Assembly: GCF_003991155.1 (NCBI RefSeq)
Contig: NZ_CP031294.1
Direction: 5' to 3' (one strand)
Length of the DNA: 64,000 nt
Source: Escherichia coli
GTDB taxonomy: Bacteria; Pseudomonadota; Gammaproteobacteria; Enterobacterales; Enterobacteriaceae
Of this stretch, positions 16,829-26,457 are shown in pieces; position 1 is the stretch's first letter; each line of letters opens with the position of its first letter. The notes under the pieces are model-generated. The model made no database searches and was not told the origin of the DNA. It worked only from the letters and a program-made list of their open reading frames with translations. The position numbers and the translations under genes were made by a program.

Positions 16829-19800
16829 TTAGTTACGTTGAGTGTTTGGGTTGAGTGATCCGCCAGGGCGTTTCTCTTGAGCGATAGTCTCAAGCGCGAT
16901 TGCTTTCATCCGTTGAGCGGCATTGTTCCATATGCTTTCTGTATCGCCGGATTCAGTTGTGCTACCGTCACTATGGACGTTGATCTCAATTGATACAGGA
17001 GAAAGAACATTTCCTCCTCCACTCATACCATCGGTACTGAGCGTTACAGGGATTGTTCGACCATCAGGCAATGGAACATACGCCTCATTCATATCGCCTT
17101 CCCCAAACAACGCCAATTGAGGTGAGTTGGCGATACCGCCTTTCTGGTATGCCCGGAGCGGGATCACGCCGTCTTTTCCGAATATGCCACCATTTGCAAA
17201 CTTCGGAATTGCAGGAATACCATTCGTGCCATCGGCAGCAGAACTGGTCAGATTGTTGAACCCGGAAGTTGAGCCAGAAGAACCGGACATCAATCCATCG
17301 AATCCACCACCAGCCCATACTGAAACCAAACCAGATGCAACTGTCGCGCCGAAATTCAACCACTTATTACCAGAGCCGGAAGCATTAGCTCCAAGCATTG
17401 CAAACGCGGCAGACAGAGCGCCGGTAACAGAGCTGAGGTTCTGCATCGAGAAGATGGAGTCCTTCACTGCTTTTGTCTCAGCATCTTTGGCTTCGGTGCT
17501 ATTAAATAGCCCTGATACCCAGCTACCAATCGCATTTGTTGCTGTGCCAATTGCGCTGGTGGTCTGCTGTGTCGTTTGCCCCAATCCAGTTACCGAACTG
17601 GACGTCTCCTTCGTGGCTTCTCCTACCGACTTGTCGCCATTAACAGTGTTGCTTATGCGCACACCTTGATTGGCAACTGCGGAAGCAACCCCGGTGAGCA
17701 AATTACCACTCTGTGAACTACCAGCTGCGGTGGTTCCCATCCCCAACATGTTCATTAGAGGCAGCGTGATCTGCGACTTCACGACCATATTGGTGATATC
17801 TTTCAAAATGGACTGAGATAGGCTGGAGAAGCTCATCTTCCCGTTAATAACGAAATCAGTCAGGACATCAGTTAAGCCACTAAACAAATCAGTCCAGGTG
17901 CTTTCGATCTGCTCTGCCAGATTTTCGTATTCCAGTGCCAACTTCTGCGTCGCAGTCCCCGTCTCTTTAATAAGCGCGGTATTGCCAGCAGCAATCAGTT
18001 GATTGATTTTCTTTGTATAAAGCGCCACAACTTTAGGATCAGACGCCTTATCACGAAGTTCTATCAACGCTTTGAGATTGCGGTTGTAGGTGTCTTCGAA
18101 ATCAGCAACTTTCTCTTCGCGAGACGGCGTATAGCCAGCACTAATAATGGAATCCGCCTCCGGTGCCCAAGTGGAGATCATCTGCTCAACATTGCGGCGA
18201 TTAAACATCTCACGATATTCAGGTGTCGCATTTTTGAGGTCTTCAAGACGTTTTTTCGCCTTGTCGATCATCTCTTGAGTGATGAACTCGTTAGGAACCG
18301 CATTAGCCAAATCTGTCAGCGATTTCGTTGTATCGCGAAGAGACTGATCAAACGATACCGTAGCCTTAGAGCTTTCACCCATTTGCCCCATAAGCTGATC
18401 GGCTTTGTCCAGAGCCTTCTGGTATCCGGCTGCCAGTTTCTGTTGCGCTGCCTGTTCCTTCTTGGCCGCACGCTGCGAGGCGTTAGCTGATCGTTGGGCT
18501 GCTTTCTCGGCAGCTGCTGCATCCTGTTCACGAGCTTTAGTAAGTGCGGCAATGGCTGCGGCACGCTCTTCATCGCTCATTTTCTCCAGAGAGCTGGCAC
18601 TGGATGCTTTCTGCAAATTAAGCTGCGTCTTGAGTTGTTTAGGCCCAATAATCGGCTTACCTTCGAAGTCCATCATCGGAGTGCCGTCAGGCAAAGTACG
18701 CTGATAAGTCGCAGAATCCATCTGGTTTCGCATATATTGCGCCAACGCCTTCTGAGCAGCTTTATCAGTTGTACCTAACCCAAGAACAGTCCCCTGGTTT
18801 GACATTACGCCCTTACCAGTTTTGGCCGCGTTATCTCTCTCGAACTCTGCCTGAGTAAGTTCCTGAGCAACGGCTTCCAAATGCTCCTGATAACCACGAA
18901 TACTGCCTTGCAGTTTCTGGATTTGCTCGGTATTGCCATCCTTTTTGGCTTTTTCAAGCTGATCATTAAGAGTCGCGATTTGCTTCTCGGTCGCATTCTT
19001 ACGAGAAGAAAGTGAATCAACCAGTTTTTGCGCAGGCTCCAGATAGCTTTTGTTTACCGTTTCACGTAACGGTGCCAATAGCTTGTTCTTTTCGTCATCT
19101 GAAAGTGAACCGTCATCATTGATTTTCTGGATCTTATCCAGAGCCTCCTGCCGGGCTTTCACGAATGTTGCCGCGAAAATCTGGTTTTCCGCTCGAATTT
19201 TCTCAATCTGAGATTCGGCAGCCTCTTTAGCCAAACGCTTTGCTACAGCGCCGTCACCAAGAGCTATCGTGCCGGTTATCTTTTGATACTCTTCCTGATT
19301 TTTTTTCAGGCGTGCTTCGATGTCAGCCTTCGACTCTTTGTGAGTAATAACACCGGCAGAGTTAGATACGTAATTAACACCCTCACCAGTTTTTAATGCT
19401 CGTTGATCAGCAAGAATCTGCTTTTCGAGCTTTTCTGCGCGGTCGGCCATTTGTGCACGTTTGGCCGCCGTCATCGCCTCTGGTATTTTCCTAATCTCGT
19501 CAACGACCTTTGAAGTTTCGCTGCGGAGCATGGTCATGTACGTGATTAGGCCAGCAACAGCTACAGTGGCAACTGTAAATGCTGCCCCTATAGGGTTTGC
19601 TGCAATGAACGCCGTTAATCCAGCAAAAGCGCCTTTAAGCCCCGTAATCGCCCCACGGATGGCGAAAATAAGAGAGGGGATCGGAGCCAGCCCCATACGT
19701 GCCGCACGATTGAATCGGGTTACTGCTGTAGCGCCGAGGTTAAATGGAGTCTGTATGGCGGTCGCCATCGTGGCAAAGGTGCTAACCATCTGGCTGCCTG

Positions 19801-21421
19801 CGCCAACTACCCCCATGATCCCTGCTCGCATCAGTTTGAACGCAACCATCGCGGCCACGACCTTACCGAGATTAATTACCAGCTCTTGGTTCTTTGCTAA
19901 CCATTGAGCAAGCTGACGCAACCCATCGATTGCCGTCGTTAACCCCGAGCCTAAAGAATTGGCAAACGAAATCCCTTCGGCGCTATTCATGATTGAAGCC
20001 AGTTCTTTCATCCCCTTCGATAGAGAATCCAGATATCCGGCCTGACCAACCCGATCAGCAAATAACGTGAATGACGTCTGAAGTTGCGCCAGCGCACCTG
20101 TGTAGGTTTGCATCATGTCTTTCGCTGCGTTCTCATTCTCCGCACGCAGACCAACAAACATCAGAGACAACGCCTGTTTTGCCTCAACCGTACCGCTGGC
20201 AACGGCTTTAGTCAGTTCCCCCATAGTGATGCCTGCGGCGTCTGCCATTGCCTGCATCGCGTTAGGAACGGCTTCACCTAATTGCTGACGTAGCTCTTCC
20301 ATTGACACAACGCCCTTACCGGACATCTGCTGAACGGCCACAGCCGCACGTTTCAACAGCTCACTATCACCACCAAAACGAGCAACGGAGTCCACCAGCG
20401 CCTTCAGAGAACCATCGGTTGGATCTAAGCCAGCAGAACGAAACTTCACGAAGGAATCTGTTAACGCCTGCATCGCGAACGGCGCATTTTGCGCCATGTC
20501 TACGATGTACTTCATATCATCAGCGGCAGCCTGGCCCGGGTTGGACTTCTCCTTATTCAACCCTCGAAGCATCACCCGCATACGTTCCATTTCGGCCGCA
20601 GCTTCAACAATAGGCTTCTGCCACCCAAACATGATGTCAGTAACCGTTCTGGCTGCATCTCCGATCTCGCCAAGCAGGAAAATGTTGCCACGAAGGCCAG
20701 AGAACATACCTCCTTCGTTACTTTTACCGCTATGGCCAGAAGCGCCGCTACGCCGCCCGCTACCACCATCGCCACTTCCAGATGTACGAACGCGTACCGG
20801 CTTGCTAATCAGTTGCTGACGTCCGATAACTTCGTCCATCTGCTCACGAACCTTTTTCAGTCCCTCGGCAGCCTGACTCGTTGTGACACCCCAATTACTG
20901 AGTCGCTTCGTCGTGGTATTAAGGCGCGTATTCATGCCACTCACGGACGCAGAGGCTTCTTTGGCCTCCGTACCAAAGCGGCTTGCGCTTTTGCTTGCAT
21001 AGGTCGCCCAATCAGAGAAATCATTTAGCTCTGATTGCACTTTACGTAATGACGCGGTGAGTTTATCTACTGAAGAAGTTGTCGTATCGACGCGCTCAAT
21101 CAGGGCTTTAAGACCAGAATTGAGGCTGGTGATGTTGCCACGCATTTTACGCGTAGCATCTGAAGCAAGCTCAAAACCGGCAGCTACATCCTGTAGTTTA
21201 TCTGCCGTAGAATCGAGCTTGCTTTCCAGAACGCCAATGATACGGGCGACCGAACCCAAAGAGCGTTCAAAGGTTTGGATTTTTTGAGCAGGCTTTGTTA
21301 CCTGCTCACCAAATCGAGTAAGCAGTTTCCCCGCACGATCGATTGACGCTGTAAACTGTTTGTCTTCCAGCGACAGGATAAACTCTACGTTTTGTGACAT
21401 TCCCTTGTCATCCTCTGCCAA
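16829..21421 (-). CDS. tail tape measure protein
   Basis: 1530 aa, coiled-coil rich, hydrophobic segments, between G/T-like chaperone genes and M-like gene. Confidence 0.85.
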   Translation of the reverse strand: MAEDDKGMSQNVEFILSLEDKQFTASIDRAGKLLTRFGEQVTKPAQKIQTFERSLGSVARIIGVLESKLDSTADKLQDVAAGFELASDATRKMRGNITSLNSGLKALIERVDTTTSSVDKLTASLRKVQSELNDFSDWATYASKSASRFGTEAKEASASVSGMNTRLNTTTKRLSNWGVTTSQAAEGLKKVREQMDEVIGRQQLISKPVRVRTSGSGDGGSGRRSGASGHSGKSNEGGMFSGLRGNIFLLGEIGDAARTVTDIMFGWQKPIVEAAAEMERMRVMLRGLNKEKSNPGQAAADDMKYIVDMAQNAPFAMQALTDSFVKFRSAGLDPTDGSLKALVDSVARFGGDSELLKRAAVAVQQMSGKGVVSMEELRQQLGEAVPNAMQAMADAAGITMGELTKAVASGTVEAKQALSLMFVGLRAENENAAKDMMQTYTGALAQLQTSFTLFADRVGQAGYLDSLSKGMKELASIMNSAEGISFANSLGSGLTTAIDGLRQLAQWLAKNQELVINLGKVVAAMVAFKLMRAGIMGVVGAGSQMVSTFATMATAIQTPFNLGATAVTRFNRAARMGLAPIPSLIFAIRGAITGLKGAFAGLTAFIAANPIGAAFTVATVAVAGLITYMTMLRSETSKVVDEIRKIPEAMTAAKRAQMADRAEKLEKQILADQRALKTGEGVNYVSNSAGVITHKESKADIEARLKKNQEEYQKITGTIALGDGAVAKRLAKEAAESQIEKIRAENQIFAATFVKARQEALDKIQKINDDGSLSDDEKNKLLAPLRETVNKSYLEPAQKLVDSLSSRKNATEKQIATLNDQLEKAKKDGNTEQIQKLQGSIRGYQEHLEAVAQELTQAEFERDNAAKTGKGVMSNQGTVLGLGTTDKAAQKALAQYMRNQMDSATYQRTLPDGTPMMDFEGKPIIGPKQLKTQLNLQKASSASSLEKMSDEERAAAIAALTKAREQDAAAAEKAAQRSANASQRAAKKEQAAQQKLAAGYQKALDKADQLMGQMGESSKATVSFDQSLRDTTKSLTDLANAVPNEFITQEMIDKAKKRLEDLKNATPEYREMFNRRNVEQMISTWAPEADSIISAGYTPSREEKVADFEDTYNRNLKALIELRDKASDPKVVALYTKKINQLIAAGNTALIKETGTATQKLALEYENLAEQIESTWTDLFSGLTDVLTDFVINGKMSFSSLSQSILKDITNMVVKSQITLPLMNMLGMGTTAAGSSQSGNLLTGVASAVANQGVRISNTVNGDKSVGEATKETSSSVTGLGQTTQQTTSAIGTATNAIGSWVSGLFNSTEAKDAETKAVKDSIFSMQNLSSVTGALSAAFAMLGANASGSGNKWLNFGATVASGLVSVWAGGGFDGLMSGSSGSTSGFNNLTSSAADGTNGIPAIPKFANGGIFGKDGVIPLRAYQKGGIANSPQLALFGEGDMNEAYVPLPDGRTIPVTLSTDGMSGGGNVLSPVSIEINVHSDGSTTESGDTESIWNNAAQRMKAIALETIAQEKRPGGSLNPNTQRN

Positions 21422-21677
21422 ATATTTGCATCAGTTGCTCTTTGGCGTCAGGGTCTGCCTTATCCTGGCTTGGATCGTAGACTTTATCTGTTACGACTGG
21501 TCTTCCAATCCTGAGTTGCAAACCCTCCATGAACGCCTTCACAGCCTCGCCATCCGCCTGGGACGCACGAGCGACTTGTAAGTTGCGGACATCCTCTTCC
21601 GCACGCAGACGGTCTATATTGCGACTGAGCATCCAGAACATCGTGAGAGGAACGTTCAGTAGCTCTAATGGCGACAC
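21408..21677 (-). CDS. tail assembly chaperone T-like segment (probably expressed as G-T fusion by frameshift)
   Basis: Short ORF in shifted frame immediately downstream of G-like ORF; canonical position. Confidence 0.45.
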   Translation of the reverse strand: MSPLELLNVPLTMFWMLSRNIDRLRAEEDVRNLQVARASQADGEAVKAFMEGLQLRIGRPVVTDKVYDPSQDKADPDAKEQLMQIFGRG

Positions 21678-21757
21678 GGCGTAGTGAGCAACTACACGAC
21701 TGAAATAGAATCCGAGATCTATTGAGACGGTCCTTGTCCCGGATTCATCGCGGGAAA

Positions 21758-22075
21758 TTACTTTGCCCCTTCGCCAGCCGCTTTTTCGTTTTCTTCATCA
21801 ATCACTTCCATAGCGAAGGTGAAGATCTGCTGGAGTTGCGGAACAGTCAGTTTTTCAAGAACTTCGTCAGGTACTGAAGGGATAACCTTACGAACCAGAT
21901 CTGCATAAGCTGTCACTTGCTCAACAGGAGACATGTTCATGAGATCTTTGCCTTCCATCTGCTTGATGGAAACGAACAGACCTACCGTCATTTCAACGAT
22001 GGGATATTCCTGACCGCCAAATTTGATGCTTTTCTTCGGAGGCAGAATGGAATCGAGATCGAGTAATTTGGTCAT
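21758..22075 (-). CDS. tail assembly chaperone G-like
   Basis: 105 aa acidic protein between major tail gene and tape measure gene. Confidence 0.6.
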   Translation of the reverse strand: MTKLLDLDSILPPKKSIKFGGQEYPIVEMTVGLFVSIKQMEGKDLMNMSPVEQVTAYADLVRKVIPSVPDEVLEKLTVPQLQQIFTFAMEVIDEENEKAAGEGAK

Positions 22076-22130
22076 TGGTTAAAATCCTTTTAAAAGAGAG
22101 GCCCATCCTGAGCCTCTGCTTAATTACTGA

Positions 22131-22877
22131 TTAATCTGCGGGGTTAATCGTTACTGACTTAGTTGCCTTCTTACCACCGCTATTGCTGGTGAAGGAGATA
22201 TTTGTAGAACCCTGCGCCACACCACGTACCAGACCCGTTTGATCTACCGTGGCCTTTTCCTGGTCTTCGGATTCCCAAACACCGGTTTTGTCTGCGGCAT
22301 CAGCTGGAGTGATTTCGGCTGTCAGTTGCACAGTTTCTCCAGCTTTTACGGTTGGAGATTCCGGTGAGATCGACACAGTTTTTACCGGTTTAGGACCGCT
22401 CATTTTGCCCAGAACGCCTTCATCATCCGGGTATGCGCTGAACTGAACAGAGAACACACGAACATCATCAGACTGGTAGGTCATAGTGAAGTTGCCCGCG
22501 GTTGCCGCTTTCGGGATGGTCAACACATAGTCGGTGGTGTCCTGCGGAGTCAGAACCAGCTCCTTCGCCACATCAATCAGGTTAACGCCCTGTGCAGATG
22601 TGATCGTGACAGAGTTGTCATCTTCGCTCAGAGTAGAACCAGGCATCAGGTCAACCATGTTTTGGAGTACAGACTCAGCCAGAGGCGCGGTGATGGTAAT
22701 GTTGCGCCCCTGAACTAATTCGGAAATTACGGTCTGCCCCAACTGATCGACGGTGACTTTCAGCGTTTCAGTGGCTACTTCAACCTGAACACCACCTTTG
22801 GTGTAACCCAAATCCACACCACCAAACGACACCTTACAGGCACCAAGTTTGATGTTTTTTACATGGGTATTAGACAT
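22131..22877 (-). CDS. major tail protein with C-terminal Ig-like (Big_2-type) domain
   Basis: Start set at internal ATG 22877 (MSNTHVKN) preceded by AAGGAG; C-terminal Ig-like repeat similar to the decoration protein domains. Confidence 0.7.
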   Translation of the reverse strand: MSNTHVKNIKLGACKVSFGGVDLGYTKGGVQVEVATETLKVTVDQLGQTVISELVQGRNITITAPLAESVLQNMVDLMPGSTLSEDDNSVTITSAQGVNLIDVAKELVLTPQDTTDYVLTIPKAATAGNFTMTYQSDDVRVFSVQFSAYPDDEGVLGKMSGPKPVKTVSISPESPTVKAGETVQLTAEITPADAADKTGVWESEDQEKATVDQTGLVRGVAQGSTNISFTSNSGGKKATKSVTINPAD

Positions 22878-22925
22878 TGATGGAAAACTCCTTTTTCCGT
22901 TAATTCTACGCATTCATTGCGCTAA

Positions 22926-25536: not shown

Positions 25537-26457
25537 TTATTCCTGTGCAGCAGTGACTTCTACGGTCGCTGTCGCTTTGTGGCTACCATCTTGGGTAGTA
25601 ACCTCGATTGTGGCAGTACCAGCCGCAACGCCAGTTACAACACCGGTTTCGCTATCCACCGTTGCAAACTCGGTATTTTTGGATTCCCAAGTAACGGTTT
25701 TATTTGTTGCTCCTGCCGGCTCGACATTTGCGGTCAGCTGAACAGTTTTGTTTGCCTCAACGGTTGTGCTATTTGGGTCGATTTCGACGCCGGTAACAGC
25801 CACAACAGGCGCAGTTACTTCCACCGTTGCAGTTCCCTTTTTGCTGCCATCTTGGGAAACGATCTCAATCGTCGCAGTGCCAACTTCTACACCAGTAACG
25901 TTCCCGCTCTGGTCTACCGTTGCCTTGTCTTCATTTTTGGAAGACCAAGTAACTGCCTTATTCGTCGCATTTGACGGCTGAACATTCGCTTTCAGACTGA
26001 CTGATTTCCCTTTCTCAACAGAGGTTGAGTCTGGCGTTACCGTTACGGATTGAACGGCTACCGGATTTACGGTGACTTCCACTGACGCGGAAAGCTGGGT
26101 TTCCTGATCAGTTGCGGTAATTTTCACTTTGCCTGGTGCTACGCCAGTTACTAATCCAGTGCCGTTGACGGTTGCAATTTGATCATTGGCTGACTTCCAG
26201 GTGAATGAACTGGCACTCTTACCCATAGTAATACCTGCACTAAGTTGAACAGTTTTCCCAACCAAAACTGACGGTGAAGCCGGGGTTATGTTTACGGATT
26301 GGGAGAAGGGAACCGCCTGCAAACAAGCAGATAGCTGACTTTGTTGTCGCTCGGTTAAAGGTTCATCGGAGATAGAATTGGTAAATCCGGCACGGCACAT
26401 ATGCCCCGTAAAATCCGAAAATGCCTCTTCCGTAATCTTCATCTTTTGTTCTGGCAT
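25537..26457 (-). CDS. capsid decoration-like protein with three Ig-like (Big_2-type) domains
   Basis: 306 aa; three ~80-aa repeats with VTGV...AGTATIEVT pattern; directly downstream of major capsid gene. Confidence 0.65.
   Translation of the reverse strand: MPEQKMKITEEAFSDFTGHMCRAGFTNSISDEPLTERQQSQLSACLQAVPFSQSVNITPASPSVLVGKTVQLSAGITMGKSASSFTWKSANDQIATVNGTGLVTGVAPGKVKITATDQETQLSASVEVTVNPVAVQSVTVTPDSTSVEKGKSVSLKANVQPSNATNKAVTWSSKNEDKATVDQSGNVTGVEVGTATIEIVSQDGSKKGTATVEVTAPVVAVTGVEIDPNSTTVEANKTVQLTANVEPAGATNKTVTWESKNTEFATVDSETGVVTGVAAGTATIEVTTQDGSHKATATVEVTAAQE

What the first reader, a model, noticed from the sequence alone, without database searches (positions are those of the whole stretch)
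21408..22075. Tail chaperone pair in G/T arrangement, frameshift site not obvious
A G-like ORF is followed by a shorter ORF in another frame ahead of the tape measure gene, the conserved layout for a programmed -1 frameshift. I could not find a canonical X-XXY-YYZ slippery heptamer near the G stop (sequence there is gaaaacgaaaaagcggctggcgaaggggcaaagtaa), so the exact mechanism is open.
Basis: partly seen in the sequence, partly recalled or inferred. Interest (0 to 1): 0.3.

Follow-up and report, generated by a model that had tools for sequence, protein, structure and literature searches.

The report
Tail chaperone frameshift at non-canonical site
This is the ordinary two-protein tail-assembly chaperone gene pair of a tailed phage (here an SSU5-like phage-plasmid), and the longer protein is almost certainly made by a one-base backward ribosome slip on the last lysine codon (A_AAG) just before the stop codon, not on the textbook seven-base slippery sequence.

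Summary
On the minus strand a 105-codon ORF (21758-22075) lies between the major tail gene and the tape measure gene. It is overlapped by a -1 frame that stays open from 21794 to 21408. No canonical X_XXY_YYZ heptamer exists in the G frame.

The window is an SSU5-like phage-plasmid. Public records call both ORFs "hypothetical" and start the second one at an internal GTG or ATG.

The 30 codons between the G stop and that GTG evolve as coding sequence in the -1 frame. They carry a motif (IDxGF) conserved as far as Pseudomonas, Rhizobium and Methylobacterium relatives, and usually have no start codon before it.

All 10 distant relatives place T in the -1 frame, and 8 have canonical heptamers. One has G_GGA_AAG directly abutting the stop.

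All 86 SSU5-like loci with the junction keep N_G(C/U)A_AAG followed by UAA or UAG. In 31 of them a -1-frame TGA limits shifting to the last 13 nt, which leaves only A_AAG.

The best reading is a single-tRNA-Lys slip beside a "shifty stop". A downstream stem-loop may help, but that is unproven.

This is a new, unannotated member of a known kind, of modest interest.

The parts
22131..22913 (-). Major tail protein gene with a C-terminal Ig-like (Big_2) domain. It is the upstream neighbour that defines the synteny.
   Evidence: PF02368, E 5.8e-26; annotated 'Tail protein' in phage Cyrano, from a later ATG.
21758..22075 (-). G ORF: 105 aa, 11.7 kDa, acidic. It is the short product, the tail assembly chaperone.
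21758..21794 (-). Overlap window in which both the G frame and the -1 (T) frame are open in this genome.
   Evidence: In 31 of 86 related loci a TGA in the -1 frame (GGC>GGT) shortens this window to the last 13 nt.
21761..21767 (-). Proposed shift site G_GCA_AAG. The slip itself is on A_AAG (21764-21761), with tRNA-Lys moving from AAG to AAA.
   Evidence: The motif N_G(C/U)A_AAG is kept in 86/86 loci. It sits at the same position as G_GGA_AAG-TAA in relative L096.
21758..21760 (-). G stop codon UAA, directly abutting the shift codon (a 'shifty stop').
   Evidence: TAA in 82 loci, TAG in 4; always adjacent to AAG.
21408..21761 (-). T segment: 117 codons plus stop in the -1 frame, read after the slip (GUA AUU UCC ...). 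The G-T fusion is 222 aa, 24.8 kDa.
   Evidence: Variable sites by codon position in the first 30 codons are 10/3/21. pS far exceeds pN. The IDxGF motif is conserved in distant relatives.
21408..21677 (-). The part of T that public records annotate as a separate 'hypothetical protein' starting at GTG 21677. This is probably a truncated gene call.
   Evidence: phrog_1131 covers only this part. The GTG is GTA in the Klebsiella lineage.
21695..21752 (-). Candidate stimulatory stem-loop. The inner helix pairs GAAUCCGG (21746-21739) with UCGGAUUC (21715-21708). The outer helix pairs CGCGAU (21752-21747) with GUCGUG (21700-21695). It starts 8 nt after the AAG.
   Evidence: The inner helix is paired in 20/20 distinct sequences, with only pair-preserving one-sided changes. 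There is no compensatory change, and the stability z-score in the window is only -0.6. It is a candidate only.
16829..21400 (-). Tape measure protein gene, the downstream neighbour.

Best explanation
The two ORFs are the tail assembly chaperone pair of an SSU5-like siphovirus phage-plasmid. Most ribosomes translate G (105 aa) and terminate at UAA 21760-21758.

A minority slip back one base while peptidyl-tRNA-Lys (the single enterobacterial tRNA-Lys, anticodon UUU) sits on the last sense codon AAG (21763-21761). The tRNA re-pairs with AAA (21764-21762). The ribosome then reads GUA AUU UCC ... and makes a 222-aa G-T fusion ending at 21408.

The preceding codon (GCA, or GUA in relatives) cannot re-pair in the -1 frame. 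The site therefore behaves as an A_AAG tetramer (NNA_AAG hexamer) rather than a tandem-slip heptamer. The slowly decoded stop codon in the A site is proposed to raise the slip to a useful level, possibly together with a stem-loop starting 8 nt downstream.

Shown: the ORF geometry, the coding nature of the -1 frame upstream of any start codon, and the restriction of the shift window to the last 13 nt in relatives.

Inferred: the identity of the slipping tRNA, the role of the stop codon and the stem-loop, and the function of G and G-T by analogy with lambda (G binds the tape measure protein; the T domain recruits the major tail protein).
For: (1) Synteny is major tail gene, G, T, tape measure gene, in the window and in every relative examined.

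(2) T is in the -1 frame in the window and in 10 of 10 distant relatives.

(3) The 30 codons between the G stop and the annotated T start behave as coding sequence in the -1 frame.
- Variable sites by codon position are 10/3/21, against 31/20/63 in the rest of T.
- pS versus pN is 0.56/0.15 (L005), 0.36/0.07 (L080) and 0.74/0.27 (L094).
- Both indels are 3 nt long.
- 80 of 86 loci have no ATG, GTG or TTG before the ID[LF]GF motif.
- The annotated GTG is lost (GTA) in the Klebsiella lineage.

(4) The IDxGF...P.xxFW motif is conserved at 27-37% identity in Pseudomonas, Rhizobium, Stenotrophomonas and Methylobacterium relatives. There it follows the G stop directly in the -1 frame.

(5) Eight of those relatives carry canonical heptamers in the overlap: G_GGA_AAG twice, G_GGA_AAC three times, and G_GGA_AAA, C_CCA_AAG and A_AAA_AAA once each. 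L096 has G_GGA_AAG immediately before TAA, one base different from the window's G_GCA_AAG-TAA.

(6) 86 of 86 SSU5-like loci keep N_G(C/U)A_AAG plus UAA or UAG. In 31 of them a -1-frame TGA leaves only GAA GNG GCA AAG available for shifting. AAG>AAA is the only cognate re-pairing in that stretch.

(7) Literature. A_AAG is the most shift-prone tetramer in E. coli, reaching 5.6% with a pseudoknot (PMC4066793). NNA_AAG sites are used in IS1222 and occur in cdd, and E. coli has a single tRNA-Lys (PMC5009743).

Against: There is no direct evidence of the fusion protein.

According to PMC4066793, tetramers without a stimulator are barely above background. The proposal therefore depends on a stimulator that I could not establish. 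The stem-loop shows no compensatory changes, its stability is not above shuffled controls in the window (z -0.6), and it is absent in the 48%-identity relative L094.

In the window's own lineage the -1 frame is open for 37 nt, so A_AAA (21785-21782) and A_AAC (21791-21788) cannot be excluded as extra minor sites.

Six loci of the L080 clade have an in-frame ATG before the IDLGF motif, so some independent initiation of T is possible in that clade.

Confidence: 0.8

Rival explanations
1. Two independent genes. T is initiated at its own start (GTG 21677, or ATG 21641 as in the SSU5 record), as annotated in the public records, and the stretch between G and T is a non-coding spacer.
For: All public records annotate it this way. 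A GTG exists at 21677. phrog_1131 models only the C-terminal 84 aa.
Against: The 'spacer' evolves like coding sequence in the -1 frame. Its indels are multiples of 3. It encodes the IDxGF motif, the stretch of T that is kept even in relatives of 27-37% identity. The GTG is GTA in the Klebsiella lineage (17 or more loci). No Shine-Dalgarno-like sequence precedes the GTG. The scan found no promoter-like site upstream of T in this stretch; its single minus-strand match lies at 21411-21382, at the T stop.
Confidence: 0.05
2. T is made separately by initiation at a non-standard codon right after the G stop (AUU 21757-21755), using the GGGG at 21769-21766 as a Shine-Dalgarno sequence. This could be de novo initiation or termination-reinitiation.
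For: GGGG lies 8 nt upstream of an in-frame AUU. PMC4066793 reports exactly this kind of artefact: G-rich motifs driving initiation at an AUA 7 nt downstream.
Against: AUU becomes GUU in the four TAG-stop loci and AUA in the Klebsiella lineage. GGGG becomes GAGG, GAAG or GACG in relatives. Distant relatives have neither feature but do have canonical slippery heptamers.
Confidence: 0.04
3. The fusion arises at another site or by another mechanism: a ribosomal slip at the upstream A_AAA (21785-21782) or A_AAC (21791-21788), or RNA polymerase slippage on the A5 run.
For: In the window's lineage the -1 frame is open from 21794 and these tetramers are in frame. One metagenome assembly has an indel-type fusion at the A5 run (P0001), which is probably a sequencing error.
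Against: In 31 of 86 loci, SSU5 itself included, a -1-frame TGA lies downstream of these sites, so they cannot yield T there. In the L005/L006/L087 lineage GAA AAA is replaced by GAG GCC or GAA GCC. A 5-A run is short compared with runs known to cause transcriptional slippage (my own knowledge). A_AA.A is the weakest of the six active tetramers (PMC4066793).
Confidence: 0.08

Closest known systems
Phage lambda gpG / gpGT (and the conserved G/GT frameshift of dsDNA phage tail genes; Levin 1993; Xu, Hendrix & Duda 2004, as summarised in PMC5009743)
   Same: Both have two overlapping ORFs between the major tail and tape measure genes. In both, the second ORF is in the -1 frame without its own start and the shift occurs close to the G stop. 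The G product is short and acidic. Relatives of this locus even use lambda's exact heptamer G_GGA_AAG.
   Different: The window has G_GCA_AAG, so the P-site codon cannot re-pair and tandem slippage is not available. The shift codon abuts the stop codon directly. There is no detectable sequence similarity to lambda G, and no Pfam tail-chaperone match.
A_AAG tetramer / NNA_AAG hexamer -1 frameshift sites: IS3, IS1222 (G_CGA_AAG), Bacillus subtilis cdd (A_CGA_AAG)
   Same: Both involve a single-tRNA-Lys slip from AAG to AAA with a non-re-pairing 5' codon. This type of site is known to work in bacteria with one tRNA-Lys(UUU) (PMC5009743; PMC4066793).
   Different: Those cases rely on a strong pseudoknot (IS3) or an upstream SD-like sequence (cdd; my own knowledge). 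Here no such stimulator is demonstrated. The 5' codon is GCA or GUA rather than CGA. The 0-frame stop is immediately adjacent.
HK97 gp13 (PDB 2OB9), B. subtilis YqbN (3KLU), Geobacillus Rbstp2171 (3FGX): solved tail assembly chaperone structures

Membership tests
G/GT tail assembly chaperone pair with programmed -1 frameshift (lambda type) | Two consecutive ORFs located between the major tail protein gene and the tape measure gene | tested here: met
   The same order is found in all relatives.
G/GT tail assembly chaperone pair with programmed -1 frameshift (lambda type) | The second ORF is in the -1 frame, overlaps the 3' end of the first, and has conserved coding sequence upstream of any start codon | tested here: met
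   (frame and overlap). (codon-position pattern 10/3/21, pS far above pN, no start codon in 80/86 loci). The frame is -1 in 10/10 distant relatives.
G/GT tail assembly chaperone pair with programmed -1 frameshift (lambda type) | Canonical slippery heptamer X_XXY_YYZ in the overlap | tested here: not met
   None is present in the window's G frame. It is present in 8 of 10 distant homologues. The window has the one-base variant G_GCA_AAG.
G/GT tail assembly chaperone pair with programmed -1 frameshift (lambda type) | G protein has the tail-assembly-chaperone fold | tested here: inconclusive
G/GT tail assembly chaperone pair with programmed -1 frameshift (lambda type) | Both G and G-T are produced at a fixed low ratio, are required for tail assembly, and are absent from virions | not testable with these tools
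   This needs proteomics, genetics or reporter assays.
Pfam Phage_TAC_* sequence families | Match above the gathering threshold | tested here: not met
   G and G-T have no tail-chaperone hit at E<1 and no NCBIfam hit. Among 150 family members, only 3 weakly hit Phage_TAC_7 (best E 1.3e-4) and 1 hits Phage_TAC_19.
Z_ZZN tetramer / NNA_AAG hexamer -1 frameshift sites | A_AAG with AAG as a 0-frame codon inside the two-frame overlap | tested here: met
   (21764-21761). The motif is kept in all 86 junction-bearing loci, which were collected with a search pattern that contains the motif; a motif-independent ORF analysis had already found the same junction in 79 of them.
Z_ZZN tetramer / NNA_AAG hexamer -1 frameshift sites | The host reads AAA and AAG with a single tRNA-Lys (anticodon UUU) | not tested
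   Hosts are Escherichia, Salmonella, Klebsiella, Yersinia and Enterobacter. PMC5009743 states the single-tRNA-Lys property for E. coli. No tRNA gene is present in the window.
Z_ZZN tetramer / NNA_AAG hexamer -1 frameshift sites | A stimulatory element: a 3' hairpin or pseudoknot at 5-9 nt, or a 5' SD-like sequence | tested here: inconclusive
   The stem GAAUCCGG/UCGGAUUC is paired in 20/20 distinct sequences but shows no compensatory change. z-scores range from -0.6 to -2.5. The upstream GGGG/GGUG is not conserved. There is no Rfam match.

The most novel reading that the evidence does not exclude
The SSU5-like lineage has lost the P-site half of an ancestral G_GGA_AAG-stop heptamer, the form still present in relative L096. 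For a long evolutionary span (down to 48% protein identity, and in about 800 plasmid and phage records) it has relied on a single-tRNA A_AAG slip. The efficiency of that slip would be set by competition with release factor at the adjacent stop codon, possibly with help from a coding-region stem-loop. The G:G-T ratio, and therefore tail assembly, would then respond to host termination efficiency and tRNA-Lys modification state.
Probability: 0.3. Interest if true: 0.4.

Novelty: new member of a known kind. Interest (0 to 1): 0.28.

Why it matters
The practical value is in annotation. In all the SSU5-like phage and plasmid records I inspected, both ORFs are labelled 'hypothetical protein'. These records include pHCM2/pMT1-type plasmids of Salmonella, Yersinia pestis, Klebsiella and E. 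coli. The second ORF is truncated at an internal start in each of them, and none carries a ribosomal-slippage annotation.

The locus also gives a natural series for frameshift work. Homologous positions carry G_GGA_AAG-stop, G_GCA_AAG-stop and A_GUA_AAG-stop. That series could be used to measure how much a P-site re-pairing codon, an adjacent stop codon and a downstream helix each contribute to -1 frameshifting in enterobacteria.

It does not change what is known about tail assembly or recoding.

Tried and rejected
**Searches that led nowhere**
- The word-indexed protein search with the fused G-T sequence returned only six proteins. All are chimeric or frameshifted gene calls from poor assemblies, so they say nothing about natural fusions.
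- Foldseek against the PDB gave no hit with E below 0.9.
- A 150-sequence profile against PDB sequences gave nothing meaningful.
- NCBIfam and Pfam gave no family for G or T.
- Rfam gave no match at E <= 1.

**Ideas considered and dropped**
- I first noticed a small hairpin, UCCCG-N9-CGGGA, 5 nt after the AAG. It is weak, it is lost in L005 and L006, and it competes with the longer stem. I dropped it as the main candidate.
- RNAalifold proposed a long-range helix pairing UGGCGA, upstream of the slip site, with UCGCCA about 105 nt downstream. It shows two covarying pairs. Its 5' arm would lie inside or behind the ribosome at the moment of the slip. The covariation also rests on one or two lineages. 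I therefore do not count it as a stimulator.
- The upstream SD-like GGGG/GGUG is not conserved.
- Transcriptional slippage was rejected because there is no long homopolymer near the conserved shift window.
- A +1 frameshift was rejected because the +1 frame closes after a few codons.
- I found no clear link between stop adjacency and loss of the canonical heptamer. L096 has both a canonical heptamer and an adjacent stop.
Full report
**What is there**

All the genes concerned are on the minus strand. The ORF listing and a three-frame translation show these features:
- a 260-codon major tail gene (22131-22913) with a Big_2 domain (Pfam E 5.8e-26);
- a 105-codon ORF, called G here (ATG 22075, TAA 21760-21758);
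- a reading frame one base upstream of G (the -1 frame), open from 21794 to TGA 21410-21408;
- the tape measure gene, 7 nt further on (ATG 21400, ending at 16829).

A programmatic scan finds no X_XXY_YYZ heptamer anywhere in the G frame. The downstream ORF has no ATG near its start. Its first in-frame start codon is GTG 21677, and 28 codons lie upstream of that GTG with no start codon.

**Where the window comes from**

The region is 100% identical to Escherichia phage CMS-2020a and 99.8% identical to phage Cyrano. It is 87-92% identical to Salmonella phage SSU5 and to Klebsiella phage-plasmids. A tblastn search with the conceptual G-T fusion finds 796 plasmid records in Klebsiella, Escherichia, Enterobacter, Yersinia, Salmonella and others. 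In 784 of them the match is near-complete and split into two pieces, that is, two frames.

Every annotated record I opened calls both ORFs "hypothetical protein". Each starts the second ORF at the internal GTG (270 nt) or at a later ATG (228-234 nt). One record does not call it at all. PHROGs has separate unknown-function families for G (phrog_893) and for the C-terminal 84 aa of T only (phrog_1131). The pair is thus unannotated as a chaperone, and T is systematically truncated.

**Is the stretch between the G stop and the annotated T start translated?**

I collected 86 SSU5-like loci that contain the junction. Within them there are 39 distinct T-frame sequences. Four lines of evidence say the 30 codons between the G stop and the GTG are coding in the -1 frame:
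- Variable sites by -1-frame codon position are 10, 3 and 21. This is the same pattern as in the undisputed part of T (31, 20, 63).
- Nei-Gojobori comparisons of the window with divergent members give pS/pN of 0.56/0.15 (L005), 0.36/0.07 (L080) and 0.74/0.27 (L094) in this stretch. These values are similar to the rest of T.
- The two indels in the stretch are both 3 nt long.
- 80 of 86 loci have no ATG, GTG or TTG between the G stop and the conserved ID[LF]GF motif. The annotated GTG is GTA in the Klebsiella lineage.

The stretch encodes SIDLGFYFSRV.AHY. This motif is recognisable in Pseudomonas (hairong, nickie), Rhizobium (V1VFA-S, RHEph10, RHph_N1_10), Stenotrophomonas (ANB28) and Methylobacterium relatives at 27-37% identity. 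In those relatives it follows the G stop almost directly. This rules out a non-coding spacer, and it makes independent initiation of T at the annotated start very unlikely.

**Is it a -1 frameshift, and where?**

In all ten distant relatives examined the T frame is -1 relative to G. Eight of them carry a canonical heptamer in the G frame inside the overlap:

| Relative | Heptamer |
|---|---|
| hairong | G_GGA_AAA |
| V1VFA-S | G_GGA_AAG |
| RHEph10 | G_GGA_AAC |
| RHph_N1_10 | G_GGA_AAC |
| Methylobacterium plasmid | G_GGA_AAC |
| nickie | C_CCA_AAG |
| ANB28 | A_AAA_AAA |
| L096 | G_GGA_AAG, immediately followed by TAA |

The family therefore uses lambda-type -1 frameshifting.

The SSU5-like group keeps N_G(C/U)A_AAG followed directly by the stop in all 86 loci. 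The heptamer is GGCAAAG in 79 loci, AGCAAAG in 4, AGTAAAG in 2 and CGTAAAG in 1. The stop is TAA in 82 and TAG in 4. The 48%-identity relative L094 has the same arrangement.

In 31 loci, including SSU5 itself, a synonymous GGC>GGT change in G creates TGA in the -1 frame. The shift must then occur within GAA GNG GCA AAG. Among those four codons only AAG offers cognate re-pairing in the -1 frame (AAA). GAA>UGA, GGG>AGG and GCA>GGC do not.

The window's site G_GCA_AAG-UAA differs by one base from L096's G_GGA_AAG-UAA at the homologous position. I conclude that the shift occurs on A_AAG at 21764-21761, giving ...AAGEGAK|VISRDESG... and a 222-aa, 24.8-kDa fusion alongside 11.7-kDa G.

**Mechanism**

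The following rests on the literature. The minimal -1 site is a Z_ZZN tetramer, and A_AAG is the classic example. NNA_AAG sites are used by IS1222 (G_CGA_AAG) and occur in B. subtilis cdd (A_CGA_AAG). Their efficiency depends on the wobble properties of the tRNA that reads the 5' codon. E. coli has a single tRNA-Lys for AAA and AAG (PMC5009743).

Sharma et al. found A_AA.G to be by far the best tetramer in E. coli, at up to 5.6% with the IS3 pseudoknot. Without a stimulator, tetramers were barely above background (PMC4066793). A stimulator is therefore expected here. There are two candidates.

(a) The stop codon is invariably adjacent to the AAG. A slowly decoded A-site stop next to a slippery P-site codon is the long-known "shifty stop" effect (my own knowledge: Weiss et al. 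1987). After the slip, the A-site codon is GUA whether the stop is UAA or UAG.

(b) A stem-loop starts 8 nt after the AAG.
- Its inner helix GAAUCCGG/UCGGAUUC (21746-21739 / 21715-21708) is the MFE structure in all SSU5-like lineages.
- It is paired in 20 of 20 distinct sequences. The four pairs that vary change on one side only, and pairing is kept (A-U>G-U and similar).
- Synonymous divergence in the first 30 codons is lower than in the rest of T for the closer comparisons (pS 0.10 vs 0.24, 0.14 vs 0.46, 0.36 vs 0.64).
- Against it: there is no compensatory double change. Both arms encode conserved residues (ESG and LGF). Stability is not above shuffled controls in the window (z -0.6, down to -2.5 in L006). 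L094 lacks the stem-loop.

I rate the stem-loop as a candidate only.

**Is G a tail assembly chaperone?**

By sequence G matches no Pfam, NCBIfam or PDB family. A profile search finds about 1,400 50%-identity clusters of similar 100-130-aa proteins. Of 150 of these, three weakly hit Phage_TAC_7 and one hits Phage_TAC_19.

**Rivals**

- *Independent initiation at GTG 21677.* Contradicted by the coding signature upstream and by loss of the GTG in one lineage.
- *Initiation at the AUU right after the stop, using GGGG as a Shine-Dalgarno sequence.* Sharma et al. documented an artefact of this kind. It fails here because AUU becomes GUU or AUA, and GGGG becomes GAGG, GAAG or GACG, in relatives.
- *Slippage at the upstream A_AAA or A_AAC, or polymerase slippage on the A5 run.* Impossible in the 31 loci with the -1-frame TGA. 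It cannot be excluded as a minor extra route in the window's own lineage.
- *An in-frame ATG before IDLGF in six L080-clade loci*. Some separate T synthesis is conceivable in that clade.

**Verdict**

This is a new, unannotated member of the well-known G/GT class. It uses a known minority type of slippery site. Non-canonical motifs in tail-chaperone frameshifts are already recognised as common (PMC10885494). Interest is modest. The value lies in correcting annotation across roughly 800 records, and in a natural allelic series for dissecting heptamer versus tetramer-plus-stop frameshifting.

Noticed in passing
window 22094-22121 (minus strand), between the major tail gene stop and the G start: A stable hairpin (GCAGAGGCUCAGGAUGGGCCUCUC, -16.9 kcal/mol, z -2.85 against shuffles) is followed by UCUUUUAAAA. 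It looks like a leaky intrinsic terminator or an RNA-stability element after the abundant major tail protein gene. The simple terminator scan missed it because the U-tract is short.
   Followed up: partly
L095 1201-1521 (Logan SRR31628392 contig), a 37%-identity relative: The G gene ends in CAG GGG AAG TAA and the -1 frame opens only 13 nt before the end of the stop. The only plausible site is G_GGG(_AAG). This is another non-canonical, stop-proximal shift site in the same protein family.
   Followed up: partly
L091 (Stenotrophomonas phage ANB28), G-frame GAA AAA AAA GAC: The shift site here is an A8 run (A_AAA_AAA). It is long enough that transcriptional slippage could contribute alongside ribosomal frameshifting.
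   Followed up: no
window 21779-21664 (minus strand); alignment A4 columns 3-8 with 111-116: RNAalifold pairs UGGCGA, just upstream of the shift site, with UCGCCA about 105 nt downstream. Two pairs covary (U-A/C-G and C-G/U-A). It could be an mRNA structure that encloses the whole recoding region when no ribosome is present. The support comes from only one or two lineages.
   Followed up: partly
window 25537-26457 (minus strand): A 306-aa ORF downstream of the capsid-region genes has a repetitive, Ig-like-looking sequence similar in character to the Big_2 tail of the major tail protein. I did not run a domain search on it. It may be a head or tail decoration protein.
   Followed up: no
protein P0001 (ENA metagenome contig of 111,509 nt): A database 'protein' reads ...EENEKSGWRRGKVISRDESGTRTVSIDL... 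It is a G-to-T-frame fusion created by a one-base difference at the A5 run, followed by a second frame change. This is most likely an assembly or sequencing error at a homopolymer, not a natural fusion.
   Followed up: no
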